From positions 36,785 to 100,784 of the forward strand of contig JAWLHB010000012.1 of the NCBI GenBank assembly GCA_041690595.1: 64,000 nucleotides of DNA, in the 5' to 3' direction. Made by a program: the position numbers and the translations under genes. Origin of the DNA: Lentisphaeria bacterium. GTDB taxonomy: Bacteria; Verrucomicrobiota; Lentisphaeria; JABSQK01; JAWLHB01. A model generated the notes under the pieces. That model saw only the letters and a list, made by a program, of their open reading frames with translations, was not told the DNA's origin and made no database searches. Positions 1,801 to 34,320 of this stretch are shown in pieces; the first letter of the stretch is position 1; each line of letters begins with the position of its first letter.

Positions 1801-2086
1801 CCTCAGCCCAGGGACAGCCCGGGGACAGGTACATTCCCTCAGCCCGGGGAGACAGCCCAGGGACAGGAGACAGCCCGGGGACAGGTACTTCCCTCAGCCC
1901 GGGGACAGGTACTTCCCTCAGCCCGGGGACAGGTGCTTCCCTCAGCCCGGGGACAGGTGCTTCCCTCAGCCCGGGGACAGGTGCTTCCCTCAGCCCGGGG
2001 ACAGGTGCTTCCCTCAGCCCGGGGACAGGTGCTTCCCTCAGCCCGGGGACAGGTACTTCCCTCAGCCCGGGGACAGGTACTTCCCT
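1801..2086. repeat. Tandem 24-bp repeat array (unit cagcccggggacaggt[a/g]cttccct). It has 9 perfect copies at 1871-2086 in the order 2x 'gta', 5x 'gtg', 2x 'gta', plus about 3 degenerate leading copies
   Basis: Read directly from the sequence. Copies abut with no spacers. The array lies in the divergent intergenic region between the BatA-like gene and the IS200-like gene. Confidence 0.9.
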
Positions 2087-2250: not shown

Positions 2251-3189
2251 ATGAGAATGGCGCGGATCAAGCATCGAGGCGGCGGCTGCTACTACCATCT
2301 GACAAACCGAACGGCAGGTAGCGAGAAAGACCGGCCCTTTGGTAAGGTTGAGAAGAAGAAGTTCGAGAATCAGGTGCATTCCCTGAGCACGCTGTATTCG
2401 CTGCAGGTGGTAACTCTTTGCGTCATGTGCAATCATTTTCACCTCACACTGTTTGTTCCAGGCGAACCTCCGAGCCGGAAAGAAGCCGCCCGCCGCTACA
2501 ACAAATTCTACAAGGACAGGCACCCCATCACCGCCGACTCGCCCATCGCCGCCGAACTGGCGCCGCGCCTCAATGACATCAGTCACTTCATGCACGATCT
2601 GCAGCAGCGTTTCACGGTCTGGTTCAACAAGAGCCGCCCGATCCGGCGTCGCGGCGCGCTGTGGGCCGGCAGGTTCAAGAGCGTCATCCTCCAACGCGGC
2701 ATGACCCTGTGGAACGCCATCAAGTACATCATCCTTAACCCCGTGCGCGCGAAGATGGTCAACGATCCTGCCGACTATCGCTTCAGCGACTGGGGGCATT
2801 GGCATGAAAGTGGACGACATCCCTTCGAATCCAACTTCGTGACCCACGTCTGTCGCAGCCTTGGCCATCGCGCCGATGGCTGGGATGCCAAGCGGCTTCA
2901 GTCTGAGCTGCGCACCGACCTCGCCCGCACCATGGCTGCCGACGCCGATGCCAACGCGATTCAGGCTGCCTGCGAGAGCGGAAAGAAGCGTCCGGCGCCG
3001 ATCCTGCGCGCCGATCGCCGGAATCGCTGCTGGAGCGATGGCGCGATCATCGGCGATCGGCAATTCGTCCACGAGGTAGCTGGTGCCGTCTACGGCAGCG
3101 ATGCCATCAAGAAGAAACGCCTTGGAAGCGGGCGCCTGCCCGATTCCGGCGAGCTGCTCTACAGCTTCCGCAGGCTGCGCAAGGACTGA
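2251..3189 (+). CDS. IS200/IS605-family (COG1943, RAYT-like) HuH-Y1 transposase, long form (312 aa)
   Basis: HuH motif in CNHFHLTLFVP. GALWAGRFKSVILQ and WNAIKYIILNPVRAKMVND match the Y-I-x-x-N-P-V-x-A-x-hydrophobic catalytic-Tyr helix typical of IS200/RAYT transposases. A GGGG stretch lies 9 nt upstream of the ATG. Confidence 0.75.
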   Translation: MRMARIKHRGGGCYYHLTNRTAGSEKDRPFGKVEKKKFENQVHSLSTLYSLQVVTLCVMCNHFHLTLFVPGEPPSRKEAARRYNKFYKDRHPITADSPIAAELAPRLNDISHFMHDLQQRFTVWFNKSRPIRRRGALWAGRFKSVILQRGMTLWNAIKYIILNPVRAKMVNDPADYRFSDWGHWHESGRHPFESNFVTHVCRSLGHRADGWDAKRLQSELRTDLARTMAADADANAIQAACESGKKRPAPILRADRRNRCWSDGAIIGDRQFVHEVAGAVYGSDAIKKKRLGSGRLPDSGELLYSFRRLRKD

Positions 3190-3299: not shown

Positions 3300-3890
3300 A
3301 GGACGTTCCCGGATGGGGGCACTGCCCATGGTCGGTGCCTGGCCGGGTTCTGCCGGCCACGCCAATTGAGAACGAGGTCGTCATGTGTCCGACTTCTGTT
3401 GTTGAGTGAAGTAGCGTGGTCGGGTTGAGGCGCTCAGACGAGAGGCGAAGAAGTGCCTGTGCCCGTGTTGTGCTCAGACGAGAGGCGAAGAAGCACCTGA
3501 CCCCGTGTTGAGGCGCTCAGGCGAGGGGCGTTCCGGGGGTAGGCGAGGCGAGAAGTACTTGGCGCCGGATTGAGGCGACGGGCCGAGAATTGGTAGTGAC
3601 AAGTACCTGTCCCCGGATTGAGGCGGCGGGCCGAGAATTGGTGGTCACCGCTGCGTTGCCGGGGGCACCGCAGGTGCCACTCAGGCGAGTGGCGTTCCCA
3701 GGAGGAATGGGGCACTGCCGATGATCGATGCCTGGCCCCGTTCTGAAAGCTACGCCAGTTGAGGGGGCGACCGCATCATCTGTGCAACATCCGAGGACGC
3801 AGATTGCTTGATTCGCGTGGAAGCTACCGCTGCATTGCCGAGGCGCCGCAGGTGCCACTCAGGCGAGCGGCGTTCCCAGCATGGGAGCGG
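3300..3890. repeat. Non-coding block of imperfect direct repeats: pairs of ~80-bp (3300-3395 vs 3700-3790), ~50-bp and ~35-bp segments, several carrying the hairpin GGCACCgcaGGTGCC
   Basis: Repeated strings are visible (e.g. gctcagacgagaggcgaagaag... twice; ggattgaggcgRcgggccgagaattggt twice; cgctgcRttgccgRggcRccgcaggtgccactcaggcgagYggcgttccc twice). Only short low-complexity ORFs lie here. Confidence 0.7.
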
Positions 3891-3909: not shown

Positions 3910-4377
3910 TCAATACTGATCCTGATCGAGGAACCTGACGATTTCGCGCTGCAGCTTCGCCTGCCGTTCCGCGATTCTGTCGGCTGGCGTCTCACGGTAG
4001 ATGTCCGTGATGTCACCGGCACCCTCCTGGATGCGCTGGCACAGCTCGCGGGCGGTCAGGACGTCGCCATCGCCGAGGCCGAGGCGTTCCGCCCAACGCT
4101 GATCGAGCAGCAGGTTGTACTCGCGTTTGGAGCCAGGGGCCTGTGGACGAAAGGAGGTGTCGATCGTGTCGTCGCACAGCCCGTCGATGCTGTGGCAGCA
4201 TGGCCGGCAGATGTCATCGGCACCAAACTCCATGCGGAGTTCCACATCGCGTTCGGCGAGCACAGCCTTGGTGACGCTGTGCACTGCGTGGCCGTAGGGA
4301 TGGGGTGGCGGTGCCTCGACACCATCCCCGAAAGCCGTGATGATGTCGACGAAGTGATGTGGCTTAATAGCGATCAT
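3910..4377 (-). CDS. Cys/His-rich small protein, DUF1284-like (putative Fe-S/metal-binding)
   Basis: Translation MIAIKPHHFVDIITAFGDG...ICRPCCHSIDGLCDD. The ATG at 4377 has a GGAGGAG Shine-Dalgarno just upstream. Track ORF 3910..4413 starts further upstream at a weaker start. Confidence 0.55.
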   Translation of the reverse strand: MIAIKPHHFVDIITAFGDGVEAPPPHPYGHAVHSVTKAVLAERDVELRMEFGADDICRPCCHSIDGLCDDTIDTSFRPQAPGSKREYNLLLDQRWAERLGLGDGDVLTARELCQRIQEGAGDITDIYRETPADRIAERQAKLQREIVRFLDQDQY

Positions 4378-4458
4378 CGTCTCCTCCCGTGAATGGGTTG
4401 TCGATAGACCCACTGTTGCAGAAAGACTTCCGCCGCGCAGTACGGGTGGGCCACGGAC

Positions 4459-5457
4459 TCAGCCGATAATCATGGGCTGACGAGCCGGCTGAACGCCATC
4501 CTCGCAGCAAGTCTCGGCGATCTCGATCTGAACCTGCGAGAGGGCATCGATCAGCTCTTCGGGTGACTCGAAGCGGTCGTCAAGATTCTTGGCCATCAAC
4601 AATTCGAAGACTTCGGTGAGCTGGTAAGGAATGTTTGGGGCAATCTCGCTGGCGGGCGTCAGCGGTTCTTCAAGGTGCTTCCAGGCAATTTCCTCTGCGG
4701 TGCGTCCCGTGAAGGGCAGCCTGCCAGTGGTGAGGTGGTAGAAGGTGGCGCCCAGGCTGTACAAGTCGCTGCGCACGTCCATGTCGCTGCCGAGGACATG
4801 TTCCGGGCTCATGTACGGGACCGTGCCGACAATGGTGTCGCTGGACTGGACTTCCGAGAGTTCGCTGCAGCGGCAGGCCATCCGAAAGCCTGTAAGCTTG
4901 GCGTGGCCGGCATCGGCGAGAAAGATATTGGCCGGCTTGATGTCGCGATGCAGGAGATCGTGTTCCTGCCATGCATAATCGATGGCGCGCGCGATCTGCT
5001 GCATGAGCATGATGGCCTGGAAGGGAGGCAACGGACCATCGCTTTCGAGGACGGCTTCGAGATCGCGCCCTTCCAGGTACTCGACGGCGGCAAAGTAGTT
5101 CTCGTCCTCCTGGCCAAGGGCGTAGGCATGCACGATGTGGGGATGAAGTAGCCGCGCCATATAGCGCGCATCCGTAACGAACTGGTTCACCAAGACGGGG
5201 TTGCCCAGCAGCTCGCGCTTCAGGAGTTGCAGGATGACGACACGTTCCAGCGAGAGCTGGTGCGCCAGGTGCAACGTACAGATCCGCGCTTCTCCCAGCC
5301 CTGCCATCACCACGAAGTCGTTGATCACGATTCCCAGAGCAAGGCGCGATGCCGGTATCAGCGTCTCTTTCTGACAGAAGTCGCAGATGATGGTATCATT
5401 GAAGGTGACCGTCTGGCGGTCGAGAATCTTCTCACATTGAGAGCACAAAAAGCGCAT
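4459..5457 (-). CDS. Zinc-ribbon Ser/Thr protein-kinase-like protein, probably a pseudokinase
   Basis: N-terminal CSQCEKIL...CDFC zinc ribbon. Kinase catalytic loop HRDIKPANIF and activation segment GTVPYMSPE are present. DFG is replaced by TGF, and no clear VAIK lysine or GxGxxG loop was seen. Confidence 0.7.
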   Translation of the reverse strand: MRFLCSQCEKILDRQTVTFNDTIICDFCQKETLIPASRLALGIVINDFVVMAGLGEARICTLHLAHQLSLERVVILQLLKRELLGNPVLVNQFVTDARYMARLLHPHIVHAYALGQEDENYFAAVEYLEGRDLEAVLESDGPLPPFQAIMLMQQIARAIDYAWQEHDLLHRDIKPANIFLADAGHAKLTGFRMACRCSELSEVQSSDTIVGTVPYMSPEHVLGSDMDVRSDLYSLGATFYHLTTGRLPFTGRTAEEIAWKHLEEPLTPASEIAPNIPYQLTEVFELLMAKNLDDRFESPEELIDALSQVQIEIAETCCEDGVQPARQPMIIG

Positions 5458-5537: not shown

Positions 5538-8500
5538 TCAGTTATCCAGGTTCTTGTAGTAGTCGGAGACGATACCCCTGTAGTCCTCGTCGATGTCCTG
5601 CAAGCCCGTGTCGTCGCCGGCGCTTCCGCCGGATGCCTCGCTGCTGGAGACGCTCATTGGCAGAACAGCTCCCGAAGCAAGCTCTGTCTGCGTTTCCTGC
5701 AACTGCTTCATGACGCGCTGCTGCAGGCTGGCGTATTCCTTCTGATCCTTGTCCATGCGCTCGACGCGCCGCATATCCCGGGCCGCCTCTCCCAGCGGTT
5801 CGGTATTGTTCATGTAGAGGAGTCGTGCGGTGGCGTACATGGCTTCTGTTTCCTGGCGGAGCGCCTGATTTGCGGAGGGGGCCTGCATGTGCATGTCGCG
5901 GCGCGGGGCGTTGCCGAACATCCCGATGGTTTCAGATTCGCCGCCGAGCTTGCCACCGCCGGTGGCCCGCGCATCCAGAGTCGAATCCTCGGCCTCTTCC
6001 ACCTGCCCCTTCTGCAGGGGATCATTGGTCTTGCGCGCATGCGTTTCGCGTCCTTCCAACCCCTTCACGGTGTTTTCGACAAGCTCGCCAGTAGACTGCC
6101 CTTCGCGGCCCGCGCCACTGCGGCCGGTCATCTCGTTGTCATTCGGCTTGGTGTTGCCGGACTTCCCTTTGGCCGAAAAATTGGGCATCGGCCCGTCCAT
6201 CACGCCCCACCCCATTTCGGCATCCGCCATCATCTGGTTGCCGGTACTGTCCTGGGACTGCATATCGATATCGGCCGATTGATCGAGGAGGTCGCCAACG
6301 ATGTCTTCAAGCTCTTCCGGCAGATCGACGAGAGGCATGTCGGGAAATTCGGCGGCATCGAAGCTTTCGAGATCCCACTTGATATTGTCAGGAATGTCCG
6401 GAAGCCACATTTCGACATCCTCGACACGTTCCTTGGTGTTCTTGATCGCTTCGAGCAAGCCATCTTCCTTCTGCACGGCAATCTCGACGCTGGGCGCGTT
6501 CTCGCTGTTGGCTGCCTGCTCCACGTCCTCGTACACTTCGCGCATCTTGCTGTTGAGATCGTTGCTGACCGGGAGTTCCGGGAACTGGTAGAGATCCTGA
6601 GCCATCTTCTCAATCTTCTCCTGCCACTGCTTCTGCTCCTCGTCAAGCTTCGCCAGTTCCGCCCGCACCTTGTCATCGAGATTGCCCCGGCGGGTAAGAT
6701 CCTTAGTCACTTCCACAATCTCGTTCTGGCGCTTCTCCATGTCGGCAAGCTGCTCGGCAATGTCTCGCAACGTCATCGAGGCATCGGCTATGGACTCGCG
6801 GGCCTTCTCGACGCGCCACTTGTTCATGATCTTGAGCGCTTCCGTCAGCAGGCGCAGCGCCTCTTCCTCGGCCTGGATGCCGGCGGCCCAGTTGACCTGA
6901 CTCAGCTCGTCGGCCGCGGTGAGCATCTTCTCGTAGAGTCGGCCGCTGGTGAGCAGCACATGAACGTTGGCCAACTGCCGGGCAAAGCTGTCTTCGCTTT
7001 CCGCGTTGGCCATACGCTTGACGGCTTCGATGAAGAGAATCGCTTCGTCAGCCAGTTGCTCCTGGCGCCGCACCAGGAGAGCGACACCGTCCCCCTGCAG
7101 TTCGGCCTGCATACCGCTCTTCGTATCGGCCAGAAGCTCGCGCTGACGAGCGACCATGCGCTGCAGCTGCCCCAGAAGATCCGTCTTGTCCTTGTAGGAC
7201 TGCTCGTTGGCAAGGGCCGTGGGCAGCCCCGTCAGCACAGCCAGAATGCGCGCCTGGAGGGCGATGGCTTCTGCGAGAGGCGCCATGCGCTCCCGGTCCG
7301 GCGCCCGCGTCAAGGCATCCAAGGCCGCAACCGCCTGCTGCATCTCATTGGTCTCCAGTTCCCTGAGCGTGATCAGGAGATCCCCGAGGACCGCATCGTG
7401 CGTCAGGAGTTCAGCAGCCAGCCGGCGAATCTCAACCTGGGCCACCAGAAGAGGCGCCATGGCGGCAACGTCGACAGTGCTACTGCCGCCGGCAAGCTGA
7501 GTCTGCAGTTTGCGGCTGCCGGACAGATTCTCTTTCTGGAGTTGGATCAGGCGAGCAACGGAGCGTTCGCTTTCTGCCCGTTTGCCCTGGACGGAGCGAC
7601 GCTCTTCGTCCGGCAGCGGGATGACGATATCCATGAGCCGTGAAGCTCCCTGCCGTGCCTCGGCGGCAGGTCCGGCATCACGCGCCAGGAGGCGGAAACG
7701 CAGGCGGGAACCAGCTTTCGCCCCCAGCGCCGCCAGGTCGACTGCGAAATGGCCACGCATCTCCCGGCGAAGCTCGTCATTGCGCTCGACCGCAATCTCC
7801 TGATCGGCCCCATCCTTCTCCACGCGTACACAGAGGACAGACGCAACGCCGTACTCGTCGCGCGCCACGAAAGGCAAGGCGATGCGCTCGCCGGGCGCCG
7901 CGGTGATCTGGCGCAGGTCGGTGGCAAAGTCGACCGTCGGCCCGAGGTCGGGCAGGATGGTCAACGGCAGAGGAATGCGGGCATCGAGTCCCGCCGTCGA
8001 TACCAACCTCAACTGAAGTGGAGCGGTGCCCGGCACCGGGAAGGTGACACGAAAATCGGCGGCATCGGCCACGGCAGCAGCCTGAAGCTCGCGTCCATCC
8101 TGCAGCACGACGACCTGGCGAAGAGGCTGGGAGGACTTGCCGGTGAGCTGTACCTCCGCGCCCACGGGAATCCCCCCCTCCGGCTGCTCCGAGCTGAGCC
8201 TGCGTCGCGGCAGAGAGGTATAGGCAGGCGGTTGCACGTCCGCCGCCCAGTTCACCAGGGAAGGCGGACTCTGCACGCCGATTGTGAAGCGGGGGGAGCG
8301 GGCATCATTGGCAATGAACCAGTAGGTGGTGCTGTCGAAAAGCAGGGGAGTCTCGGCGGTGAAGCTCAGGGGCTCTCCGTCGACGGCAACGAGCATGATC
8401 TGCTTTGCCTCGCCACGCTCCGGTTGCACGACCAGCATCGGCTTGCGCGGCACTTTCCCTTCCAGGCGAACGCGAATGAGAGCCTTTTCTCCACGTGGGA

Positions 8501-9101
8501 CAATGGTATTGCCTGGCAGCACGTCGGCAATGCGGGTGAGGCTGTATGGCTCCAGGCCACGCATCGGCATGAGCAGCCGCTGCACGGATACCTCCATGCC
8601 ACGCGGGTTGAGGGCGAAGACAAGGATACCGGCGCATAACGCCAGGGCGGAAGCGGTTGCCGTCATCTTCAGCCAGTGAAGCGGGAAGAGCTGCCAGGCA
8701 CTGATGTGGTCAAGCTGGACGGGCTGGGTTCCCATCAGGCTCTGCGCAAACCGTCGCTCACGCTCGTCGGCGGAGTTGGAAAACTGGACCACGTTGATCA
8801 GCCGGTTGCCCAACTCGGGGCTGCAGCTCTCGACGCGGCTGCACATGTGTTCGGCGGTCATGCGGCGCGTGGCGCTCCAGACGCACATGCCCAGCAACCC
8901 CAGCACAAAGATCCAGAGCATGGCCCAGCCCGTCCAGCAAAGGGCCGGCGACAGCTGGAAGGCCAGGTCACTGAGCACAAAGAGCAACACCGACCAGAGG
9001 GCGATGGCGACAATCCCCAGTCCGGCGGCAGTCATCAGCCAACCCTTGTAGCCTCGGCGCAAAGCAGTCAGCCTCGCCTGAATCTGGTCGAGCGAACTCA
9101 T
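5538..9101 (-). CDS. Large (~1187 aa) membrane-anchored coiled-coil protein of unknown function. It has 3-4 N-terminal TM helices, a long coiled-coil middle and a highly acidic C-terminus
   Basis: Long ORF with TM segments near the N-terminus (GLGIVAIALWSVLLFVL, LWIFVLGLLGMCVW, ASALALCAGILVFAL). ATG at 9101 chosen over GTG at 9182 because the extra 27 codons are AT-rich (TTA/CTA codons), atypical for this genome. Same strand and adjacent to the ABC/CPBP genes. Confidence 0.7.
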   Translation of the reverse strand: MSSLDQIQARLTALRRGYKGWLMTAAGLGIVAIALWSVLLFVLSDLAFQLSPALCWTGWAMLWIFVLGLLGMCVWSATRRMTAEHMCSRVESCSPELGNRLINVVQFSNSADERERRFAQSLMGTQPVQLDHISAWQLFPLHWLKMTATASALALCAGILVFALNPRGMEVSVQRLLMPMRGLEPYSLTRIADVLPGNTIVPRGEKALIRVRLEGKVPRKPMLVVQPERGEAKQIMLVAVDGEPLSFTAETPLLFDSTTYWFIANDARSPRFTIGVQSPPSLVNWAADVQPPAYTSLPRRRLSSEQPEGGIPVGAEVQLTGKSSQPLRQVVVLQDGRELQAAAVADAADFRVTFPVPGTAPLQLRLVSTAGLDARIPLPLTILPDLGPTVDFATDLRQITAAPGERIALPFVARDEYGVASVLCVRVEKDGADQEIAVERNDELRREMRGHFAVDLAALGAKAGSRLRFRLLARDAGPAAEARQGASRLMDIVIPLPDEERRSVQGKRAESERSVARLIQLQKENLSGSRKLQTQLAGGSSTVDVAAMAPLLVAQVEIRRLAAELLTHDAVLGDLLITLRELETNEMQQAVAALDALTRAPDRERMAPLAEAIALQARILAVLTGLPTALANEQSYKDKTDLLGQLQRMVARQRELLADTKSGMQAELQGDGVALLVRRQEQLADEAILFIEAVKRMANAESEDSFARQLANVHVLLTSGRLYEKMLTAADELSQVNWAAGIQAEEEALRLLTEALKIMNKWRVEKARESIADASMTLRDIAEQLADMEKRQNEIVEVTKDLTRRGNLDDKVRAELAKLDEEQKQWQEKIEKMAQDLYQFPELPVSNDLNSKMREVYEDVEQAANSENAPSVEIAVQKEDGLLEAIKNTKERVEDVEMWLPDIPDNIKWDLESFDAAEFPDMPLVDLPEELEDIVGDLLDQSADIDMQSQDSTGNQMMADAEMGWGVMDGPMPNFSAKGKSGNTKPNDNEMTGRSGAGREGQSTGELVENTVKGLEGRETHARKTNDPLQKGQVEEAEDSTLDARATGGGKLGGESETIGMFGNAPRRDMHMQAPSANQALRQETEAMYATARLLYMNNTEPLGEAARDMRRVERMDKDQKEYASLQQRVMKQLQETQTELASGAVLPMSVSSSEASGGSAGDDTGLQDIDEDYRGIVSDYYKNLDN

Positions 9102-9184: not shown

Positions 9185-11344
9185 TCAGGTAATGCCGGTA
9201 ATGCCGGGGTCCCCCTCCTGAAGCGAGGCGCAGGGGCTTTCCTCTTCGCGCCCGATCACCAGCAGTCCCGCCACAAAGACAAGGATGGCGACCGCCATCC
9301 AGCGCCAGTCGAGGCCATCTCCCGCGGCACCGGTCAAACCCGGCAGCCAGTTGTACTTCATAGCCATGACACCAATGAAATTATTGATGCCGTGCACGAG
9401 CACGCCGGTCCACAGGGATCCTGTCTGGAAGACAACCCAGGTGATGACCAGTCCGAGCACCGCCGTAGGAAAGATGCGGTAGATGCTGAGGTGGAAGAAG
9501 CCGAACATCAGCGCGGTGAAGACGATGACAGTCCACTTGCCTAGCCTGCCGCGAAGACTCCCGAGAATCAAGCCGCGAAAGAAAAACTCTTCGCAGATGG
9601 CGGGAGAGATGCAGAAGGCGAGGAGCAATTGCCAATCCATCAGCCGCAGATCGTCAAGCCCAAGTGCTTCACGCATGCGCTCCTCGAACTCCAGCGGCAC
9701 CGGAAGCACCATGTTCTGCAACCAGGAGGCGAAGTGGCCAACCACAGCCCAGGCCGTCATCCCAATCAGCACCGCACCCAGAACTCCACGCCACCGGGGC
9801 CGACAGATCGACAGAGCCAGGTGAGGGTCGAGCTTGAGCATTCGCACCAGGAAGGCGACAGGCAGGAAGAGAAGAACCCATTGCGTGCCCAGCATGCCCC
9901 AGAAGATATCGGCCTCCTGCATCGCCGAACCAACATAATAGAGCAGCACCAACAGCACACCGAAGGCGATCAGGGCAAGCATGGGGCGGGGGCGCCGATG
10001 CCGAATCTCGACAAGATCGAGGACCTCCCCCACCGGGGTCTGTCCGCCCAGCAACACCTGCTCGTTCTGAAAGATCTTGACGGCCAGGGCAAGCGCACCC
10101 GCGGCGTAGAGGGTGTTGGCCAGCATGACCATGGCGATCAACCAGGCAGCGGGCGGCTCCTGCAACATCTCGCGCAACAGCAGCATGATGTTCAGACCGG
10201 GCGCCCAGCTCGTCGCCAGATCGAGCCGCACCGAGGGTAACGCCGCGATCGCCGCCGGCACGATGACCAGGATGTAGACCGGCGTCAGGTAATTCTGGGC
10301 CTCCTTGAAGCTGTGCGCGAAGACGGCGATGGCCAGCATCAGGGCCGAGAAGAAGACCGCGATCGGCACCAGCTGCACCAGCACCAGCAGCACGGTGGAA
10401 AAGTCGACATGAAAGATGAATTCCTCACTGCGGGGAGAACTGCGCAGCATCCAGGCAATAGCCATCGCCATACTCACCAGGTTCGCCAGGGCCGAAAGCA
10501 TCGCTACGGTGAAGACCGTGAAGAATTTGCCCATGATGATCTCGGTGGGACGTGCCGGTGCGGTCAGCAATGTCTGCATGGTGCCGCGTTCCTTCTCACC
10601 GGCAGTCAGATCGATGGCTGGATAAAATGCGCCGAGCATCACCATCACCATGAGGACCAGAGGGATGATCCTGCCGGCCAGAAAGCCCCCGCGCTTCTGG
10701 GCGGTGGCGGTATTCTGGGAATCGATGAGCACCGGCAGAAAGAAGCCCTCCGGCAACTCGGGGCGACGCTCGAGACGCTCGTCCCGCAAGGCTTCCCGCC
10801 AGACCAGCAGGGCATCTTCGATCCGGTTCTTGGCCGTCCGCGACTCATGGACGGTCTCGTCGTAGAGGATCGCGATCGGGACGCTGCCCTCCTCAGCCAG
10901 CACCTGCTCGATGTTCAGGGGCACCACCAGAACCGCATCGGTCCGGCTGCGATCGATCATGCGGCGGGCCCAGGTGACCATCTCCTCCGGGGCTTGGGTG
11001 CGCGCAAAGGGAAGAACGGCTTCCCCACCTTCTTCGTCCACCTTCGGCGGCAGGATCGGCATGGATTCGGGCGCTGCCGGCCCAAAGTCCGGCACCAGCG
11101 CCTCAAACGCCTCGGCGTCGGCGAGTTGTCGGCGCAAGCCGTACGGCAGTGGCCCCTTGATCCAGACCCGAACCTTCTGCTCCTGCATCTGCGACATCTG
11201 GTGGGTGACCACCTGCCCAAAGGCAATGATAAGCAACGGATACATGACCATCGGCAGCAGCAACATGACCAGCAGGGTTCGCCGGTCTCGCAACGTCTCC
11301 AGCAGCTCCTTGCGAAAAATGGTGGTGGCAATTCGCCAGCGCAT
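9185..11344 (-). CDS. Fusion protein: ABC-2-type transporter permease (N-terminal) plus CPBP/CAAX-type intramembrane metalloprotease domain (C-terminal)
   Basis: N-terminus MRWRIATTIFRKELLETLRDRRTL is typical of ABC-2 permeases. The C-terminus carries CPBP motifs EEFFFRG (EExxxR), FGFFHLS (FxxxH) and HGINNF (HxxxN). Its ATG overlaps the TGA of the upstream ATPase gene (ATGA). Confidence 0.8.
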   Translation of the reverse strand: MRWRIATTIFRKELLETLRDRRTLLVMLLLPMVMYPLLIIAFGQVVTHQMSQMQEQKVRVWIKGPLPYGLRRQLADAEAFEALVPDFGPAAPESMPILPPKVDEEGGEAVLPFARTQAPEEMVTWARRMIDRSRTDAVLVVPLNIEQVLAEEGSVPIAILYDETVHESRTAKNRIEDALLVWREALRDERLERRPELPEGFFLPVLIDSQNTATAQKRGGFLAGRIIPLVLMVMVMLGAFYPAIDLTAGEKERGTMQTLLTAPARPTEIIMGKFFTVFTVAMLSALANLVSMAMAIAWMLRSSPRSEEFIFHVDFSTVLLVLVQLVPIAVFFSALMLAIAVFAHSFKEAQNYLTPVYILVIVPAAIAALPSVRLDLATSWAPGLNIMLLLREMLQEPPAAWLIAMVMLANTLYAAGALALAVKIFQNEQVLLGGQTPVGEVLDLVEIRHRRPRPMLALIAFGVLLVLLYYVGSAMQEADIFWGMLGTQWVLLFLPVAFLVRMLKLDPHLALSICRPRWRGVLGAVLIGMTAWAVVGHFASWLQNMVLPVPLEFEERMREALGLDDLRLMDWQLLLAFCISPAICEEFFFRGLILGSLRGRLGKWTVIVFTALMFGFFHLSIYRIFPTAVLGLVITWVVFQTGSLWTGVLVHGINNFIGVMAMKYNWLPGLTGAAGDGLDWRWMAVAILVFVAGLLVIGREEESPCASLQEGDPGITGIT

Positions 11345-12075
11345 CAGATATCATCTCCTATCAGGCTGAGGAAGATCTCGGTGAGTGCCTGCCGGCCGGT
11401 CTGCTCCTGCAACTCCATCAGTGATCCTTCCGCCTTGACCACGCCGCGATGAATCAGAATGATCCGGTCGCACAGGTATTCCGCTTCACCCATGACGTGA
11501 GTGGAAAAGAGGACCGCCCTCCCCTCGGCTTTCGCCTGCAGAATGGCATCGAGGATGAACTTGCCGGTGACGATATCCAGCGCGGTGGTCGGCTCGTCCA
11601 GAATCAGGACGGGCGGATCATGCACGAGCGTCCGGGCGATATTGGCCTTCTGCTGCTGACCGGTCGAGAGGGTGCCGCATTGCCGATCGGCAAATCCCTC
11701 CATCTTGAGGTGCGAGAAGAGCCGCTCGGTGCGCTCCGCAATGAGGGAGTCGTCCATCTCGTGCAGGCGCCCGAAAAAGCGCAGCATCTCGCGTGGGGTC
11801 AGCCGTTTGTAAAGCTTGGTATCGCCAGTGAGAAATCCAAGCCGCTGCTTCACGTCGAGAGGCGAACGGAGGGTATCGAAGCCACATACGGCAGCGCGTC
11901 CATGAGTCGGTGCAAGAATGCCAGCCAGCATGCGGAGGCTCGTTGTCTTGCCGGCGCCATTCGGCCCGAGAAGCCCGACGACTTCCCCCCCATGCACATG
12001 GAGGTCGAGCCGCTTGAGCGCTTCCACGCTCCCATACTCCTTTCCCAGGTTGACTGCCTCAAGCAGCGGTTCCAT
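11344..12075 (-). CDS. ABC transporter ATP-binding protein
   Basis: Walker A GPNGAGKTT, ABC signature LSTGQQQK, Walker B LILDEPTTALD. ATG at 12075 (MEPLLEAVNLGKEYG) preferred over the TTG at 12114 used by the track. Confidence 0.85.
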   Translation of the reverse strand: MEPLLEAVNLGKEYGSVEALKRLDLHVHGGEVVGLLGPNGAGKTTSLRMLAGILAPTHGRAAVCGFDTLRSPLDVKQRLGFLTGDTKLYKRLTPREMLRFFGRLHEMDDSLIAERTERLFSHLKMEGFADRQCGTLSTGQQQKANIARTLVHDPPVLILDEPTTALDIVTGKFILDAILQAKAEGRAVLFSTHVMGEAEYLCDRIILIHRGVVKAEGSLMELQEQTGRQALTEIFLSLIGDDI

Positions 12076-12153
12076 GAGGTTATTCCCGCTCGTGCCGCGG
12101 GAGGCGCCACCCAACCGGAAGCGCCGGCGCCAATCGCCCGATCCCGTGCCGCA

Positions 12154-19296: not shown

Positions 19297-20685
19297 TTAT
19301 CCCGGTCCCGCAAAGGTGTAATAGGGTTCGTTGTTCAGGATCCGCTGAAGGTAAAGTGCCACCTCGAGCGCATGATAATCGCCCCACATGCTCGCCTCGC
19401 CACAGGGGATGCTGCTGCCCTCGGGCACATGGTCCCACCCGTTGGGACGGTGATAGATCGAGTGCAGAAGAAGCCCCTGATGGGCCGGATCCTCGCTCAG
19501 ATAGGGCTCATCGAAAAGCGTTTTCAGCACCTGCAGCCCAGCCTGCCAGTAGCGGTCACCCTTGGCGCGATCGCCGTGTTCCTGAAGGAAGCGCCCCAGG
19601 CGCAGGAGCCCCTGGCTGCCGATCGCCGCCGCCGAGCTGTCCACCGGTTCATGATCATTGTAAGGTTCGGCCGGTCGCTCGAGGTAATCGCCCATGGCCG
19701 CCAGCCCCGGCGCACCGGTATCCCAGTAGGGAATGCCGTCGATCGGGGTATGCTCGATGTAGAAGTCGCAGCTTGCCAGCGCGGGACGAAGCAGCATCTC
19801 GTTCACGCGTGCCCGCCCACCGAACGGCGCGAGCTGAGCATCGTCCAGCCTGCCGATGAACTCCAGCTCTTCCGCGAAGCCGCACATGATCCAGGCCAGC
19901 CCACGCGTCCACGTGCTGAACGGCGAATACCCCTGCTGCGAATTGGGACAACGGAAAACGCCGTTGTTGGTGTTGAAGATGCTCTCGTGCGCCACACGTC
20001 CATGCAGATCGTAGCTGTCTCGCCCTTCCCCGTAGAAGACCGCATAATCGGCAGTGACCCCGGCATGATGGAGCAGACGCTCGAGCAGGGAAACGTTGGC
20101 ATCCTGCTCCATCATCAGCGACTGCCCCAGCTCGTGCGCGACGGCCAGAGCGCGCAGGGAGCGAATGGTGTCGGCGAAAAGCGAGTGCGGCCCGTTGAAG
20201 GAGTAGATGTAACCACGCCCATCGGCAATTGGCGTCCAGCGTACGGCCTGAACAACCCCCGAGCACTTGAGCGCCATGCTGTAGAAATCCACATCACCGT
20301 CAGTGGCGGCGATCTTCCCTTCCCGCGCGAGACGCAGCAGGTTGCCATAGGTGCTGACATTATTGAAGCCGTGGTCGTGTACGCCCACATGCGTGACGTG
20401 CCCGGCCATGTTGTGTCGGGTATTCTCACGGCCCAATTGCAGAAATTCTTCATCGCCAGTGGCATCGAAGAGGAGCAGCGCACTGCCATATTGGAAGCCC
20501 TGCGTCCATTCGGTCCAGCCACGGGCCGTATAGCGGCCGGCGACAGTAAAGACCGGTGCGCCCGAGCCCAGCGGATAGTCATGATCGATCGCGCGTATTT
20601 TTCGCGGCGCCGCGGCAAAAACCCGAGCTAGCTGTGGCTGCAGGTCGGCCGCCTTCAAGTTTGGATCAAGCTGAATGATAATCAC
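19297..20685 (-). CDS. GH88/GH105-like unsaturated glucuronyl/rhamnogalacturonyl hydrolase-fold protein
   Basis: HDHGFNNVSTYGNLLRLA and overall alpha/alpha-toroid-like sequence. Family assignment is tentative. Confidence 0.5.
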   Translation of the reverse strand: MIIIQLDPNLKAADLQPQLARVFAAAPRKIRAIDHDYPLGSGAPVFTVAGRYTARGWTEWTQGFQYGSALLLFDATGDEEFLQLGRENTRHNMAGHVTHVGVHDHGFNNVSTYGNLLRLAREGKIAATDGDVDFYSMALKCSGVVQAVRWTPIADGRGYIYSFNGPHSLFADTIRSLRALAVAHELGQSLMMEQDANVSLLERLLHHAGVTADYAVFYGEGRDSYDLHGRVAHESIFNTNNGVFRCPNSQQGYSPFSTWTRGLAWIMCGFAEELEFIGRLDDAQLAPFGGRARVNEMLLRPALASCDFYIEHTPIDGIPYWDTGAPGLAAMGDYLERPAEPYNDHEPVDSSAAAIGSQGLLRLGRFLQEHGDRAKGDRYWQAGLQVLKTLFDEPYLSEDPAHQGLLLHSIYHRPNGWDHVPEGSSIPCGEASMWGDYHALEVALYLQRILNNEPYYTFAGPG

Positions 20686-20915
20686 ACCTGCCAGATAAGA
20701 TTTTCATGACCTCGTCTGCATAAAGAGGCGTGTGCAGCCCTATCCGCCGCCCCGCCTGGATATCCTTAACAAGCATAGCGCATCAACCGCAGAAGTACAA
20801 ATCCCTGCCCCACGATAAGGAAAAAGTTCTTTACCCGCGGCGGTAGCCTCCCGTTGCTCTCGCATCGTCGCCCTTCGGCATGCCGGATTTGTACGAGATT
20901 CTCTCGGGCGCTGGG

Positions 20916-20944
20916 TTGCAATCGTGCAAAGCAGAGGTAAATTA
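20916..20944 (+). promoter_or_regulatory. Sigma70-like promoter candidate for tRNA-Gly (TTGCAA - 17 nt - TAAATT)
   Basis: Hexamers are visible ~20-45 nt upstream of the tRNA 5' end. Weak -10. Confidence 0.3.
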
Positions 20945-20963
20945 GCCTCAGTTTCTCGTCTGA

Positions 20964-21037
20964 GCGGGTATAGCATAGTGGTAATGCTCCAGCCTTCCAA
21001 GCTGATTAGAAGGGTTCGATTCCCTTTACCCGCTCCA
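20964..21037 (+). tRNA. tRNA-Gly (anticodon TCC), 74 nt with encoded CCA
   Basis: Manual cloverleaf: acceptor GCGGGTA/TACCCGC, D-arm GCAT-AGTGGTA-ATGC, anticodon loop CTTCCAA (U33, TCC, A37), T-arm AAGGG-TTCGATT-CCCTT, discriminator U, CCA. One C·A mismatch at the top of the anticodon stem. Confidence 0.85.
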
Positions 21038-21226
21038 CTTCCCCCCTCCGACCTCCGCAACTCCCTGCCTCCCCAGCAGGATACCTTGCCCAGCTCCCCA
21101 CCCTTCCGCCATTGGCGCAGTGGTGTTTGACTTGCCGCTACCGGCGGAATGCTCGATTAGCTAGCTATTGCCAGCCCCATTCCAGGGCGCCGGAAAGCGA
21201 TTTACGCCCGATAGGCGGTTTGCGCA

Positions 21227-21256
21227 GAGCGGGCGGATTCTTATACCCGCTCCACT
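21227..21256 (+). repeat. Relic duplicate of the tRNA-Gly termini. The 13-bp TACCCGCTCCACT is an exact direct repeat of the tRNA 3' end (21027-21039), preceded by GAGCGGG, forming a mini acceptor-stem hairpin
   Basis: Exact 13-bp repeat 210 bp downstream of the tRNA. gagcgggcggattcttatacccgctcca mimics the tRNA 5' and 3' ends with the body deleted. Confidence 0.6.
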
Positions 21257-21286
21257 CTTCTTCACGCGCACTGTCAGCCATCACCC

Positions 21287-22951: not shown

Positions 22952-23585
22952 GAATGGATCTGTGATTGGCCTTCCGCTCGGCGGTTGAGTCGCTGCATGG
23001 TAACTCTCTTCCGGATCCAGGCGAAAGCGGCTGTTTTCGCGTCTCGATCCAGGCGGAAACCCCGCCCGGGGTGCTCCCCATGCTCAGGAACGACGGTACA
23101 AGCAGGCGAGTGACCATCATCGTGCAGGTGTTTAACCATCCATGCACCTGATCAGCGTCGCAACAGCACGTCTTCCCCGAGCACCCACAATCACCATCCT
23201 ACGGATTCAACCCTTGCGTTACAAACACTTCGCGACAACTCATACTCCAACCAACATGAGACCACTCTTGTGAGTAACCGCATGAGCCAGGGTGATGATC
23301 TGGAAAATCGCAAATCCCAATATCTTACCTTACACCGGTTTATCAAGTCCGGCTGGAAGAAATAGGCGGATGATCGACGGCAACAGAGGTTGGGCCAGCG
23401 CGTCACTCGCCGGGGATTGGCTCAATTCGAATATTACGAAACCGCACGTGGCCCCCAACCCGGCTCTTGCCGCGATTGTAGAGGTAGAGCTGCATCACGC
23501 CTTGGTCGGTTGTGGCAAACTCCATGCTCACTGGGCTCCAGGTATCGGGGGAAAATCATGATCGCAAGACAACCGTAAAATACGT

Positions 23586-26567: not shown

Positions 26568-26678
26568 AGGTCAATACTCCAGCCGATTAGAGATGATCAG
26601 GTCATTGACGGGTAGTATACCCGCGACATCCCTGCCAGGTCAACTGCATCAGGAGGATCGATGAATCAATCCGAAAGA

Positions 26679-28655: not shown

Positions 28656-28844
28656 TCTTGCTTTCCATGTCAACAGGTTGGGTCGTTCAAACAACGCTTC
28701 CACCCGGTACAATAACGTCTCCCCCCCTGCCCACAATGAAGGAATCGAAAATCCCGAAAATCCATCCACTCATTGAATTGCGGGGCTCACCGCGGCTAAA
28801 CTATTCCGCCGATCTGGAACCAGCACCTGAACAGGGAGATACGG

Positions 28845-29684: not shown

Positions 29685-29700
29685 TTCGCACTCTCGCCAG

Positions 29701-33587: not shown

Positions 33588-33612
33588 CACAGATTTCTCT
33601 CCACGTTGAGCT

Positions 33613-34320
33613 TCAGTCCAGTTCCAAGGTAAAATCCGCGGCAGCGACGTCAGTGGAGCGCACCGCGCCCACATGCCCCCCCACCCGCAGCAGGACGACA
33701 CGATTGCTATGGCGCGCGCCGTAAGTCTGCAGGGCGATCTGCAGAGTGGCGGAGGCGGGAATGCCGCTGTAGCCGAGGAGATAACCACGATAGTCCATCA
33801 TCCAGATAGTGTCGGTATCGGCAATGTGGGAATCCTTGGCAATGTCATTCGGATAGGGAGCGATGGGATTGAGATAGTTGCAGGGAGGGGTCTCTTTGTC
33901 GCCGGGCTGGCGATGGTAATCGACATTATTCAAGGCATAGGACATGGCGGGCATCGTGCTCCAGCGTTCCCACACCTGATACGGCCCAAAGCTGTCGGTC
34001 AGGGTGTAGGAGACCACCTCCTTGACCTCAGGGCAGCGACGGATGTCATCGCTTGCCCCTTCGCTCTTGAGCTTCTCCGTATACCGCTCCTGAGGCTCGA
34101 AAGTTGGCCAGATCGAGAGGTTGGTGCTGACAAAGTAGCCGTCACTTCCGCCCATGTAGGATAGATGAGCCAGGCCCCACTGCCGAAGGTTGTTGATGCA
34201 GGAGGTGGTTCGTGCGGCTGTTCGTGCCTTGGTCAACGCGGGAAGCAGCAGAGAAGCCAGTATGGCAATAATAGCGACCACCACAAGTAATTCGATCAAG
34301 GTGAAGTGAAACTTACGCAT
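33613..34320 (-). CDS. Prepilin-type N-terminal cleavage/methylation-domain protein, DUF1559-like (PVC-group pseudopilin-like)
   Basis: [33 protein letters not shown]..., C-terminal H-x9-GG-H (variant of H-X9-DG). AGGAGG lies 9 nt upstream of ATG 34320. The track ORF is extended 26 codons. Confidence 0.8.

What the first reader, a model, noticed from the sequence alone, without database searches (positions are those of the whole stretch)
4459..5457. Zinc-ribbon-fused Ser/Thr pseudokinase
The kinase fold is recognisable (HRDIKPANIF, GTVPYMSPE), but the DFG aspartate is replaced (TGF) and the beta3 lysine and Gly-rich loop are not evident. These are hallmarks of a catalytically impaired pseudokinase. 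A CxxC...CxxC ribbon is fused N-terminally. It is embedded in the envelope-system gene string.
Basis: partly seen in the sequence, partly recalled or inferred. Interest (0 to 1): 0.5.

Follow-up and report, generated by a model that had tools for sequence, protein, structure and literature searches.

The report
Zinc-ribbon pseudokinase paired with envelope protein
The gene encodes a well-folded bacterial protein kinase look-alike that has lost the residues needed to transfer phosphate, belongs to a tiny conserved clade, and always sits just after a large uncharacterised membrane protein, so it is most likely a non-catalytic regulatory partner of that protein; this is a new member of a known kind rather than a surprise.

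Summary
ORF 4459-5457 (-) encodes 332 aa: an N-terminal Cys4 zinc ribbon (C5, C8, C25, C28) plus a complete Hanks-type kinase fold (Pfam Pkinase 2.4e-36; AF2 pLDDT 95; PknB TM 0.92). Four independent alignments agree. The Gly loop is LGEARIC, beta3 Lys is Q77 and alphaC Glu is D96. The DFG motif is G190-F191-R192. H170-R171-D172, K174, N177 and SPE are kept.

It is not a one-off. An exhaustive search of 1.84 billion representatives found seven GFR proteins. They form an exclusive clade inside about 83 canonical zinc-ribbon kinases. The beta3 and alphaC positions drift within the clade, but GFR and several new charged residues are invariant. The gene is under purifying selection (dN/dS 0.19).

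In 6 of 6 loci with readable upstream DNA, it lies 10-108 nt after a 1,190-aa, three-TM, distant DUF4175-like protein. Two loci also carry an ABC ATPase and an ABC-2/CPBP permease.

Best reading: a phosphotransfer-dead cytoplasmic adaptor of that membrane module. Non-canonical nucleotide binding is not excluded. This is a new member of a known kind and of modest interest.

The parts
4459..5457 (-). Pseudokinase gene (332 aa; identical to P0001)
   Evidence: ORF listed. Pfam Pkinase 2.4e-36. AF2 pLDDT 95.1 and pTM 0.91. Foldseek top hit is PknB 5u94, E 1.7e-25, TM 0.92.
5353..5457 (-). N-terminal Cys4 zinc ribbon, residues 1-35 (C5, C8, C25, C28; MRFLCSQC...CDFC...IPASR)
   Evidence: The four Cys are invariant in all 7 clade members and in 83 canonical relatives. 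Modelled as four beta strands with pLDDT 96-98. Pfam matches are sub-threshold only: Zn_ribbon_6 E 0.028 for this protein, and Zn_ribbon_4/5 E 0.002 to 7e-5 for canonical relatives.
4528..5325 (-). Kinase-fold domain, residues 45-310
   Evidence: phmmer against StkP covers residues 48-307. NCBIfam PknB_PASTA_kin covers 59-310 at 231 bits, below its equivalog cut-off of 450. The secondary structure is that of a complete bilobal kinase.
5275..5298 (-). Degenerate Gly-rich loop, residues 54-61 (LGEARICT); E56 and R58 are clade-specific invariants
   Evidence: It aligns to GRGGMG of relatives and GFGGMS of PknB. E56 is invariant and position 58 is R or K in 7 of 7 clade members, against 2% and 0% of 83 canonical relatives.
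5227..5229 (-). Q77 at the beta3 (VAIK) lysine position
   Evidence: Aligned to PknB K40. This position is Q, A, K, R, H, K and K across the seven clade members.
5170..5172 (-). D96 at the alphaC glutamate position
   Evidence: Aligned to PknB E59. The clade shows D, D, E, E, N, E and E.
4924..4950 (-). Catalytic loop H170-R171-D172-I-K174-P-A-N177-I, retained
   Evidence: D172, K174 and N177 are invariant in all 7 clade members. One member has HND in place of HRD.
4882..4890 (-). G190-F191-R192 in place of DFG
   Evidence: Codons ggc ttt cgg. GFR occurs in 7 of 7 clade members, while D and G are present in 83 of 83 canonical ribbon kinases.
4801..4809 (-). S217-P-E219 (APE motif), retained
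5538..9101 (-). Conserved partner gene: 1,187-aa membrane protein ('BIG', P0121), a distant DUF4175 relative
   Evidence: A homolog at 49-75% identity lies immediately upstream of the pseudokinase in L001, L002, L003, L008 and L074. It has three hydrophobic segments. AF2 gives a TM hairpin, a helical loop, TM3, a beta-sandwich region, long helices and a disordered conserved stretch. It has no Pfam or NCBIfam hit itself, but 5 of 23 distant relatives hit PF13779.
9185..11344 (-). ABC-2 permease fused to a CPBP/Rce1-like intramembrane protease (719 aa)
   Evidence: Pfam hits. The same gene, at 57% identity and in the same order, is present in L008.
11344..12114 (-). ABC transporter ATPase (256 aa)
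   Evidence: Pfam ABC_tran 2.4e-29. It is 73% identical and in the same position in L008.

Best explanation
The gene encodes a soluble cytoplasmic protein with a Cys4 zinc ribbon packed against a complete Hanks-type kinase fold. The fold has lost canonical ATP/Mg2+-dependent phosphotransfer: the Gly-rich loop is degenerate, the beta3 Lys is Gln, the alphaC Glu is Asp, and DFG is GFR.

It belongs to a small monophyletic clade that arose from catalytically canonical zinc-ribbon kinases of PVC-group bacteria. The change to GFR and the loss of the Gly loop came first. The beta3 Lys and alphaC Glu were then freed to drift.

The protein is kept by selection. It is co-transcribed with, and most likely acts on or through, the adjacent 1,190-aa DUF4175-like membrane protein, and in some genomes an ABC-2/CPBP transporter as well. 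It would serve as a non-catalytic adaptor or switch on the cytoplasmic face, either binding the partner's cytoplasmic loop or serving as a docking or phospho-acceptor platform for an active kinase. The MviN pseudokinase/FhaA and EssB/YukC cases are the models for this.

Shown: the fold, the motif losses, the clade, purifying selection and gene adjacency. Inferred: catalytic inactivity, the physical partnership and the adaptor mechanism.
For: Clade: an exhaustive HMMER search over 1.84e9 representatives returned seven GFR proteins. In an NJ tree of 90 ribbon-kinase domains they form an exclusive clade.

Relaxed constraint falls exactly at the catalytic positions. Beta3 is Q, A, K, R, H, K, K and alphaC is D, D, E, E, N, E, E, while GFR is 7 of 7.

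New clade-specific invariants cluster around the nucleotide site: E56, R/K58, K80, E82, G/A176, G190 and R192.

Selection: all seven ORFs are intact, and dN/dS is 0.19 at dS 0.53 for L001 against L002.

Partnership: a BIG homolog lies 10-108 nt upstream on the same strand in 6 of 6 loci with readable upstream DNA. No terminator-like site was found between the two genes on the coding strand. BIG and the pseudokinase have diverged in parallel, at 49-75% and 49-55% identity. Canonical relatives (P0005, P0009, P0011) have unrelated neighbours.

There is no TM segment or signal peptide in the pseudokinase.

Phospho-signalling is linked to this membrane-protein family elsewhere. Verrucomicrobial BIG loci carry an FHA-fused MoxR ATPase, and one carries a Pkinase-TPR gene. 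L074 has an apparently active ribbon kinase two genes upstream.

Precedents for non-catalytic bacterial pseudokinases attached to envelope machines are reviewed in PMC12599244.
Against: No biochemical evidence exists, so inactivity is inferred from motifs only.

D172, K174 and N177 are invariant in all seven proteins, and the P+1/APE region is intact. That is more retention than a pure scaffold needs.

R/K58, K80 and R192 are conserved basic residues that could rebuild a phosphate-binding site.

BIG homologs of similar divergence lack the pseudokinase (L010, L011, L012, L013). The most divergent GFR member (L075) has no BIG C-terminus in its 268 upstream bases. The pairing is therefore not obligatory.

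BIG's bulk is predicted to be periplasmic. Only residues 1-21 and about 76-145 would be reachable, and that loop shows no pseudokinase-specific signature.

The clade is tiny, with seven sequences that are mostly from short metagenomic contigs.
Confidence: 0.6

Rival explanations
1. It is a non-canonical enzyme or nucleotide sensor. The clade rebuilt the active site with E56, R/K58, K80, E82 and R192, so that it still binds ATP or another phosphorylated ligand without Mg2+ coordination by a DFG Asp. It might catalyse phosphotransfer or another reaction using the retained D172/K174/N177. WNK (relocated Lys), CASK (GFG, Mg-independent), POMK (G-loop Lys) and the arginine-lined DLHK bacterial family would be the analogues.
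For: D172, K174 and N177 are invariant in 7 of 7 proteins, although K77 and E96 drift. Five charged residues around the pocket are newly fixed. Purifying selection is evident. Precedents are summarised in PMC12599244 and bioRxiv 10.1101/2025.01.12.632604.
Against: Gly2 and Gly3 of the loop, the beta3 Lys, the alphaC Glu and the DFG Asp are all compromised together. None of the named precedents loses all of these while staying active. K80 lies three residues after the beta3 position, so it would point away from the pocket on a regular strand. A basic residue at that position is also present in PknB and StkP (KVLR), so it is not a new compensation. No model coordinates were available to inspect the pocket.
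Confidence: 0.17
2. It acts as a decoy or allosteric partner of active zinc-ribbon kinase paralogues, through heterodimerisation or competition for their substrates. Its position next to BIG would then reflect only co-regulation.
For: It descends from canonical ribbon kinases and keeps the ribbon, the P+1 loop and the APE motif. L074 encodes an apparently active ribbon kinase two genes upstream of BIG. Eukaryotic and bacterial pseudokinases often regulate active relatives (PMC12599244).
Against: No other kinase is encoded in the 64-kb window. The nearby kinase in L008 has no ribbon. Adjacency to BIG is much more consistent than adjacency to any kinase.
Confidence: 0.18
3. It is a decaying pseudogene, or the motif losses are an alignment artefact, and the protein is either non-functional or an ordinary active kinase.
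For: The Pfam Pkinase match starts only at profile position 43, so the N-lobe is divergent.
Against: Seven intact orthologues exist with dN/dS of 0.19-0.39. AF2 pLDDT is 95. Four independent alignments give the same residue assignments. GFR is invariant across proteins that are only 41-55% identical, apart from one 84% pair.
Confidence: 0.03

Closest known systems
PknB/StkP-type Hanks Ser/Thr kinases, and specifically the canonical zinc-ribbon-fused kinases of Lentisphaerota/Planctomycetota (e.g. P0005-P0011, P0158)
   Same: They share the same fold (TM 0.92 to PknB; 29-30% identity) and the same N-terminal MRFxCxxC...CxxC...VPxSR ribbon. The catalytic loop HRDIKPxNI and the GTxxYxSPE motif are also the same. 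They are 37-42% identical to the nearest canonical ribbon kinases.
   Different: The Gly-rich loop, beta3 Lys, alphaC Glu and DFG Asp are lost or drifting. The protein is short (332 aa), without the 400-600-aa C-terminal extensions of most canonical ribbon kinases. Its gene neighbourhood is different.
The seven bacterial Hanks-type pseudokinase families of the bSTK atlas (ActPs1-3, GLW, CP1, DYD, DLHK; bioRxiv 10.1101/2025.01.12.632604; PMC12599244)
   Same: These are conserved bacterial lineages of the Pkinase fold with degraded catalytic motifs. DLHK (P. aeruginosa Q9I0B5: AVLT, HRD, GFG) is the nearest in motif pattern, and is proposed to line the pocket with arginines.
   Different: As those papers describe them, none combines a retained HRD-Asp/Lys/Asn with GFR and a zinc ribbon. 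They come from Actinobacteria, Proteobacteria, Cyanobacteria and Firmicutes, not the PVC group. DLHK is fused to helicase or nuclease domains.
MviN (MurJ) pseudokinase domain with FhaA in Mycobacterium tuberculosis, and EssB/YukC of the type VIIb secretion system
   Same: Each is a non-catalytic kinase-fold module attached to an envelope membrane machine, acting as a scaffold or phospho-dependent docking site (PMC12599244). An FHA-fused MoxR ATPase occurs in related BIG loci.
   Different: Those pseudokinase domains are fused to, or anchored in, the membrane protein, and have all three motifs degraded. Here the pseudokinase is a separate soluble protein that keeps the catalytic loop. The partnership here is inferred from gene order only.
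PknG (rubredoxin-like Cys4 domain next to the kinase core)
   Same: A small Cys4 metal-binding domain lies immediately N-terminal to, and packs against, a bacterial Hanks kinase core (PMC8546545).
   Different: PknG is an active kinase with TPR repeats. Its metal domain is a rubredoxin (CxxCG pairs), not an MJ0042-like zinc ribbon. PknG was not among the top 50 Foldseek hits.
DUF4175 (PF13779) membrane proteins; Bat/MoxR-DUF58-BatA clusters (for the partner gene)
   Same: Distant BIG relatives hit PF13779. Verrucomicrobial BIG loci carry DUF58, BatA+VWA, TPR and MoxR genes.
   Different: BIG itself has no Pfam or NCBIfam hit. The window has no MoxR, DUF58 or BatA genes. No function is known for DUF4175.

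Membership tests
Protein kinase superfamily, Hanks type (Pfam PF00069) | Significant match to the Pkinase profile and a bilobal kinase fold | tested here: met
   126 bits against a cut-off of 31.7, E 2.4e-36. AF2 pLDDT 95. Foldseek match to PknB, TM 0.92, rmsd 2.0.
Catalytically canonical Hanks kinase | Gly-rich loop GxGxxG | tested here: not met
   G55-E-A57-R-I-C60; only the first Gly is kept.
Catalytically canonical Hanks kinase | Beta3 (VAIK) lysine | tested here: not met
   Q77 aligns to PknB K40 and to the StkP Lys in four alignments.
Catalytically canonical Hanks kinase | AlphaC glutamate | tested here: not met
   D96 aligns to PknB E59. This is a conservative change, but the position is N in one orthologue.
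Catalytically canonical Hanks kinase | HRD aspartate plus catalytic-loop Lys and Asn | tested here: met
   H170-R171-D172, K174 and N177.
Catalytically canonical Hanks kinase | DFG aspartate (Mg2+ ligand) | tested here: not met
   G190-F191-R192. It is D in 83 of 83 canonical ribbon relatives.
Catalytically canonical Hanks kinase | Phosphotransfer activity and ATP binding | not testable with these tools
   This needs an autophosphorylation assay and a thermal-shift assay.
Pseudokinase (kinase fold lacking at least one of VAIK-Lys, HRD-Asp, DFG-Asp) | Loss of at least one catalytic-triad residue, conserved among orthologues | tested here: met
   The Lys and the DFG-Asp are lost. GFR is present in 7 of 7 clade members.
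Zinc ribbon (MJ0042-like, Pfam Zn_ribbon_4/5) | Two CxxC knuckles on beta hairpins | tested here: met
   C5xxC8 and C25xxC28 are invariant. Four strands are modelled at pLDDT 96-98.
Zinc ribbon (MJ0042-like, Pfam Zn_ribbon_4/5) | Profile match above the family threshold | tested here: inconclusive
   The window protein's best match is Zn_ribbon_6, E 0.028. Canonical relatives match Zn_ribbon_5 at 22.9 bits against a cut-off of 29.3.
Zinc ribbon (MJ0042-like, Pfam Zn_ribbon_4/5) | Stoichiometric zinc binding | not testable with these tools
   This needs metal analysis of purified protein.
Named bacterial pseudokinase families (ActPs1-3, GLW, CP1, DYD, DLHK) | Family-specific motif pattern and domain architecture as published | tested here: not met
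   By their published descriptions, the families lacking the DFG-Asp (ActPs1-3, GLW) also lack the HRD-Asp. DYD keeps a D in its motif. DLHK and CP1 have other fusions and taxa. Direct sequence comparison was not done.
DUF4175 (PF13779), for the partner protein | Profile match | tested here: not met
   BIG itself has no hit. It is linked only through distant relatives, 5 of 23 of which hit PF13779 with a best E of 8e-20.
PD-T4-6 single-gene kinase defence system (PADLOC) | Specific match beyond a generic kinase domain, and defence context | tested here: inconclusive
   Seventeen of the 25 listed PD-T4-6 models hit at 133-221 bits, and more weakly for the rest. They cover only the generic kinase core. 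The catalytic residues are missing here, and the neighbours have no PADLOC hits.

The most novel reading that the evidence does not exclude
The GFR clade may not be a dead kinase. It may be a re-engineered ligand-binding or catalytic module. In this reading the newly fixed charged residues (E56, R/K58, K80, E82, R192), together with the fully retained D172/K174/N177, form a metal-independent site for ATP or another phosphorylated molecule. The protein would then couple a cytoplasmic metabolic or phospho-signal to the DUF4175-like envelope protein and its ABC-2/CPBP transporter. That would give the first functional handle on the DUF4175/Bat-type systems of PVC bacteria.
Probability: 0.15. Interest if true: 0.6.

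Novelty: new member of a known kind. Interest (0 to 1): 0.35.

Why it matters
Bacterial pseudokinases are recognised but almost unstudied, and none has been described from the PVC group. This clade is a clean natural experiment. Canonical sister proteins with the same zinc ribbon exist, so revertant and swap experiments are straightforward. The order of motif loss can also be read from the seven sequences. Its strict adjacency to a large DUF4175-like membrane protein offers an entry point to a widespread envelope protein family of unknown function. The practical impact is limited, because the clade is very rare and comes from uncultured organisms.

Tried and rejected
- An exact look-up of the window protein's contig found nothing, and cluster look-ups gave no names or accessions. 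The organism is therefore only inferred as PVC-group, probably Lentisphaerota, from the nearest BIG homologs.
- A metagenome-wide DNA pattern scan for HxDIKPxNI-11aa-GFR returned 41 loci. Only the two already known belong to the clade, and the rest are unrelated kinases.
- The 912-aa neighbour of the canonical relative P0009 is unrelated to BIG.
- BIG has no match in NCBIfam, the PDB by sequence, or PADLOC.
- A literature search on DUF4175 gave no functional information.
- The Planctomycetota STK survey (PMC11032199) does not mention zinc ribbons or pseudokinases.
- The PD-T4-6 and MADS6 defence-kinase hits are generic kinase-core matches and were rejected as an identification.
- The downstream DUF1284-like ORF 3910-4413 is not conserved next to the pseudokinase in other loci, so it was excluded from the module.
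- A comparison of the BIG cytoplasmic loop between pseudokinase-linked and pseudokinase-less loci showed no distinguishing signature.
- Model coordinates are not exposed, so the predicted geometry of E56, R58 and R192 could not be inspected.
Full report
**1. The observation.**
The minus-strand ORF 4459-5457 encodes 332 aa starting MRFLCSQCEK. It matches Pfam Pkinase at E 2.4e-36 (126 bits, cut-off 31.7) and PK_Tyr_Ser-Thr at 8e-24. It also matches the NCBIfam PknB_PASTA kinase model at 231 bits, far below that model's equivalog cut-off of 450. Among solved structures the best sequence matches are StkP (1.6e-43) and M. tuberculosis PknB and PknA.

An AlphaFold2 model built on 98 homologues has mean pLDDT 95.1 and pTM 0.91. 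It shows the full set of kinase secondary-structure elements, preceded by four short strands at residues 2-33. Foldseek places it on PknB (5u94, E 1.7e-25, target TM 0.92, rmsd 2.0). The kinase fold is therefore real and complete.

**2. Catalytic residues.**
Four independent alignments give the same register:
- phmmer against StkP
- MAFFT with close and distant relatives
- L-INS-i including PknB, whose sequence I supplied from memory as a numbering reference
- an hmmsearch-derived alignment of 407 kinase domains

| PknB residue | Window protein |
|---|---|
| G18, G20, G21, S23 | G55, A57, R58, C60 (loop LGEARIC) |
| K40 | Q77 |
| E59 | D96 |
| H136-R137-D138 | H170-R171-D172 |
| K140 | K174 |
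| N143 | N177 |
| D156-F157-G158 | G190-F191-R192 (codons ggc ttt cgg, nt 4890-4882) |
| APE | S217-P-E219 |

No conserved acidic residue replaces it nearby.

**3. The zinc ribbon.**
C5xxC8 and C25xxC28 are invariant in every close relative. The segment is modelled as two beta hairpins at pLDDT 96-98. Pfam gives only sub-threshold zinc-ribbon hits: Zn_ribbon_6 at E 0.028 for this protein, and Zn_ribbon_4/5 at E 0.002 to 7e-5 (22.9 bits against a cut-off of 29.3) for canonical relatives.

The ribbon is ancestral, not a novelty of this gene. Of 407 kinase domains collected, 90 carry the aligned four Cys.

**4. It is a clade, not an accident.**
A word-indexed search of 5.8 billion proteins found three relatives at 51-55% identity (P0002-P0004). 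All three have GFR and a GE-x-[RK]-x-C loop. The next relatives, at 37-42% identity and annotated Lentisphaeria, have the same ribbon but canonical GxGxxG, K, E, HRD and DLG.

An exhaustive HMMER search of 1.84 billion 50%-identity representatives, using a profile of the four, added three more members:
- P0130, the kinase of locus L008
- P0134, 889 aa
- P0156, 317 aa

Among the 90 ribbon-kinase domains, 82 are canonical (66 DLG, 11 DFG, 5 DMG). One more keeps the Lys and a DLG motif but has Thr for the alphaC Glu and Asn for the HRD-Asp. The other seven have GFR. In a neighbour-joining tree, the smallest clade containing the seven contains nothing else.

Within the clade the catalytic positions vary as follows:

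| Position | State across the seven members |
|---|---|
| beta3 Lys | Q, A, K, R, H, K, K |
| alphaC Glu | D, D, E, E, N, E, E |
| HRD | HND in one member, HRD in the rest |
| DFG | GFR in all seven |
| D172, K174, N177 | invariant |

The three members that keep both K and E (P0003, P0134, P0156) still have GFR and a degenerate loop. The DFG and Gly-loop changes therefore probably came first, and the Lys-Glu pair was then released from constraint.

The following residues are fixed in all seven but present in under 15% of the 83 other ribbon kinases: L4, F/Y19, L41, E56, R/K58, K80, E82, H110, G/A176, G190, F191, R192, P214 and I/L247. Five of these are charged residues around the nucleotide site.

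**5. Selection.**
All seven ORFs are intact. For the only pair with unsaturated synonymous divergence (L001 against L002, dS 0.53), dN/dS is 0.19. Other pairs give 0.27-0.65 with saturated dS. The partner gene gives 0.094 for the same genome pair. The pseudokinase is thus maintained by selection, roughly twice as relaxed as its neighbour. A decaying pseudogene is excluded.

**6. Genomic context.**
In the window, four genes are packed on the minus strand:
- ABC ATPase (12114-11344)
- ABC-2 permease fused to a CPBP/Rce1-like protease (11344-9185)
- a 1,187-aa protein with no Pfam or NCBIfam hit ('BIG', 9101-5538)
- the pseudokinase (5457-4459)

No terminator-like site lies between BIG and the pseudokinase on the coding strand.

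A BIG homolog lies immediately upstream on the same strand in every other clade locus with readable upstream DNA:

| Locus | BIG identity to window |
|---|---|
| L001 | 59% |
| L002 | 68% |
| L003 | 75% |
| L008 | 54% |
| L074 | 49% |

The gaps, including the window, are 80, 31, 31, 26, 10 and 108 nt. L008 also repeats the ABC ATPase and ABC-2/CPBP genes in the same order. L074 instead has an apparently active ribbon kinase (GGGGGG, AVK, YRD, DFG) two genes upstream of BIG.

The 1.3-kb contig of the most divergent member (L075) has no BIG C-terminus in its 268 upstream bases. Canonical ribbon relatives sit in unrelated neighbourhoods.

Conversely, BIG is much more widespread than the pseudokinase. 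Twenty-three species-representative genomes of Lentisphaerota, Verrucomicrobiota and Planctomycetota encode it. None of those loci encodes the pseudokinase, including four with BIG at 42-54% identity (L010-L013). A metagenome-wide DNA pattern scan for the HxDIKPxNI-11aa-GFR signature recovered only two already known loci of the clade.

The pseudokinase is therefore a rare accessory. When present, it is tightly tied to BIG.

**7. What the partner is.**
BIG has three hydrophobic segments (about 22-43, 54-76 and 146-164) that are conserved in homologues. Positive charges precede the first and follow the second. This predicts an N-in topology, a cytoplasmic loop of about 70 residues, and about 1,000 periplasmic residues. 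The loop carries the family-wide NRLINxxQF motif.

The AF2 model (pLDDT 74.8, pTM 0.41) agrees:
- a TM hairpin, a helical loop and TM3
- a well-predicted beta-sandwich region at 190-493
- a long helical region at 497-960
- a stretch at 960-1076 modelled as disordered, although it is the most sequence-conserved part of the family

A profile search links BIG to proteins carrying PF13779 (DUF4175). Five of 23 relatives hit it, with a best E of 8e-20. No functional literature exists for DUF4175.

In Verrucomicrobiota, BIG lies in Bat/MoxR-type clusters with DUF58, BatA+VWA, a GATase1-like gene, a TPR gene and an FHA-fused MoxR AAA+ ATPase. One locus also has a Pkinase-TPR gene. So the 'envelope system' label has some basis, and phospho-Thr signalling is linked to this family elsewhere. 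The window itself has none of those Bat/MoxR genes.

**8. Mechanism.**
*Best supported (about 0.6).* A phosphotransfer-dead, soluble adaptor or switch for the BIG module, which in some genomes includes the ABC-2/CPBP transporter. The pseudokinase has no TM segment or signal peptide. Any direct contact must therefore be with BIG's N-terminus, its cytoplasmic loop, or the ABC ATPase.

The published parallels are the MviN pseudokinase domain and EssB/YukC. The MviN domain is phosphorylated by PknB and then recruits the FHA protein FhaA. EssB/YukC is a structural pseudokinase of the type VIIb secretion system (PMC12599244).

The fold, motif loss, clade, selection and adjacency are shown. Inactivity, the physical partnership and the mode of action are inferred.

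*Main rival (about 0.17).* The pocket has been rebuilt for metal-independent nucleotide or phospho-ligand binding, or for non-canonical catalysis. This is suggested by the invariant D172/K174/N177 and the newly fixed E56, R/K58, K80, E82 and R192. Precedents are WNK, CASK, POMK and the arginine-lined DLHK family.

Against it, the Gly loop, Lys, Glu and DFG-Asp are all compromised together. In addition, a basic residue at the K80 position also occurs in PknB and StkP.

*A further non-exclusive rival (about 0.18).* The protein may be a decoy or allosteric partner for active ribbon-kinase paralogues.

**9. Comparison with what is known, and novelty.**
Bacterial Hanks-type pseudokinases are an established kind. 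A recent atlas defines seven families: ActPs1-3, GLW, CP1, DYD and DLHK (bioRxiv 10.1101/2025.01.12.632604; PMC12599244). As described there, the families lacking the DFG-Asp also lack the HRD-Asp. None is reported with a zinc ribbon or from PVC bacteria.

This clade is therefore an independent, previously undescribed origin of a pseudokinase. It has a distinct signature (HRD kept, GFR) and a distinct partner. Nothing shown here departs from the known concept, so I classify it as a new member of a known kind.

Interest is modest (0.35). A specialist would not be surprised, but the system is well suited to experiment. Canonical sisters with the same ribbon are available. The order of motif decay is readable. 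The partner is a widespread envelope protein of unknown function.

**10. Limits.**

Noticed in passing
window 5538-9101 (-), BIG residues about 960-1076: The most sequence-conserved stretch of the 1,187-aa membrane protein is KSGNxKPNDNEMTGRSGAGREGQSTGELVEN...ARATGGGKLGGESE. It has many columns invariant even in relatives of 27% identity. AlphaFold nevertheless models it as disordered, at pLDDT about 30. A Gly/Ser/Thr-rich segment that is this conserved yet apparently unstructured is unusual and unexplained.
   Followed up: partly
L019 16198-17631 and L014 16205-17611 (Verrucomicrobiota loci holding BIG homologs): A MoxR-type AAA_3 ATPase with an N-terminal FHA domain sits three genes downstream of BIG. 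The clusters also carry DUF58, BatA+VWA, GATase1-like and TPR genes. L019 additionally has a Pkinase-TPR gene on the opposite strand. This suggests phospho-Thr control of a Bat/MoxR-type envelope system.
   Followed up: partly
window 1871-2086: There is a 24-bp unit repeated 9.0 times at 98% match (consensus CAGCCCGGGGACAGGTGCTTCCCT), with an overlapping 18-bp repeat at 1848-1885. It reads as SPGTG-type peptide repeats in several frames of non-credible ORFs.
   Followed up: no
window 2251-3189 (+): A 312-aa ORF has a weak IS200-like Y1 transposase match (PF01797, E 6e-6, no stretch passing on its own). It lies just after the tandem repeat, and a 40-bp x2 repeat follows at 3432-3510. It may be a REP-associated tyrosine transposase-like element.
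   Followed up: no
window 9185-11344 (-): This is a single 719-aa protein fusing an ABC-2 permease (residues 8-426) to a CPBP/Rce1-like intramembrane protease domain (residues 571-657). The same fusion is conserved at 57% identity in L008.
   Followed up: partly
C-termini of P0002, P0003, P0004 and P0130 (loci L003, L002, L001, L008): Four of the seven pseudokinases end in acidic, low-complexity tails that finish with [YH]-D-L-[GA] (MYDLG, AYDLG, VYDLG, HDLA). P0134 has a Pro/Gln-rich tail of about 550 aa. The window protein has only a short tail ending MIIG. This may be a C-terminal docking motif that is absent or reduced in the window's copy.
   Followed up: no
L074 4360-5385: A 341-aa protein with its own CxxC...CxxC ribbon and canonical motifs (GGGGGG loop, AVK, YRD, DFG) is encoded two genes upstream of the BIG-pseudokinase pair. 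It is a candidate active partner kinase in that genome.
   Followed up: partly
window 33613-34398 (-) and 19297-33788: A DUF1559/SBP_bac_10 prepilin-like protein lies here with several glycoside-hydrolase-like genes (GHL6/GHL10, DUF4838, Glyco_hydro_42M) and a GntR/LacI-type regulator. This gene content is typical of PVC-group polysaccharide degraders and is consistent with the inferred taxonomy.
   Followed up: no
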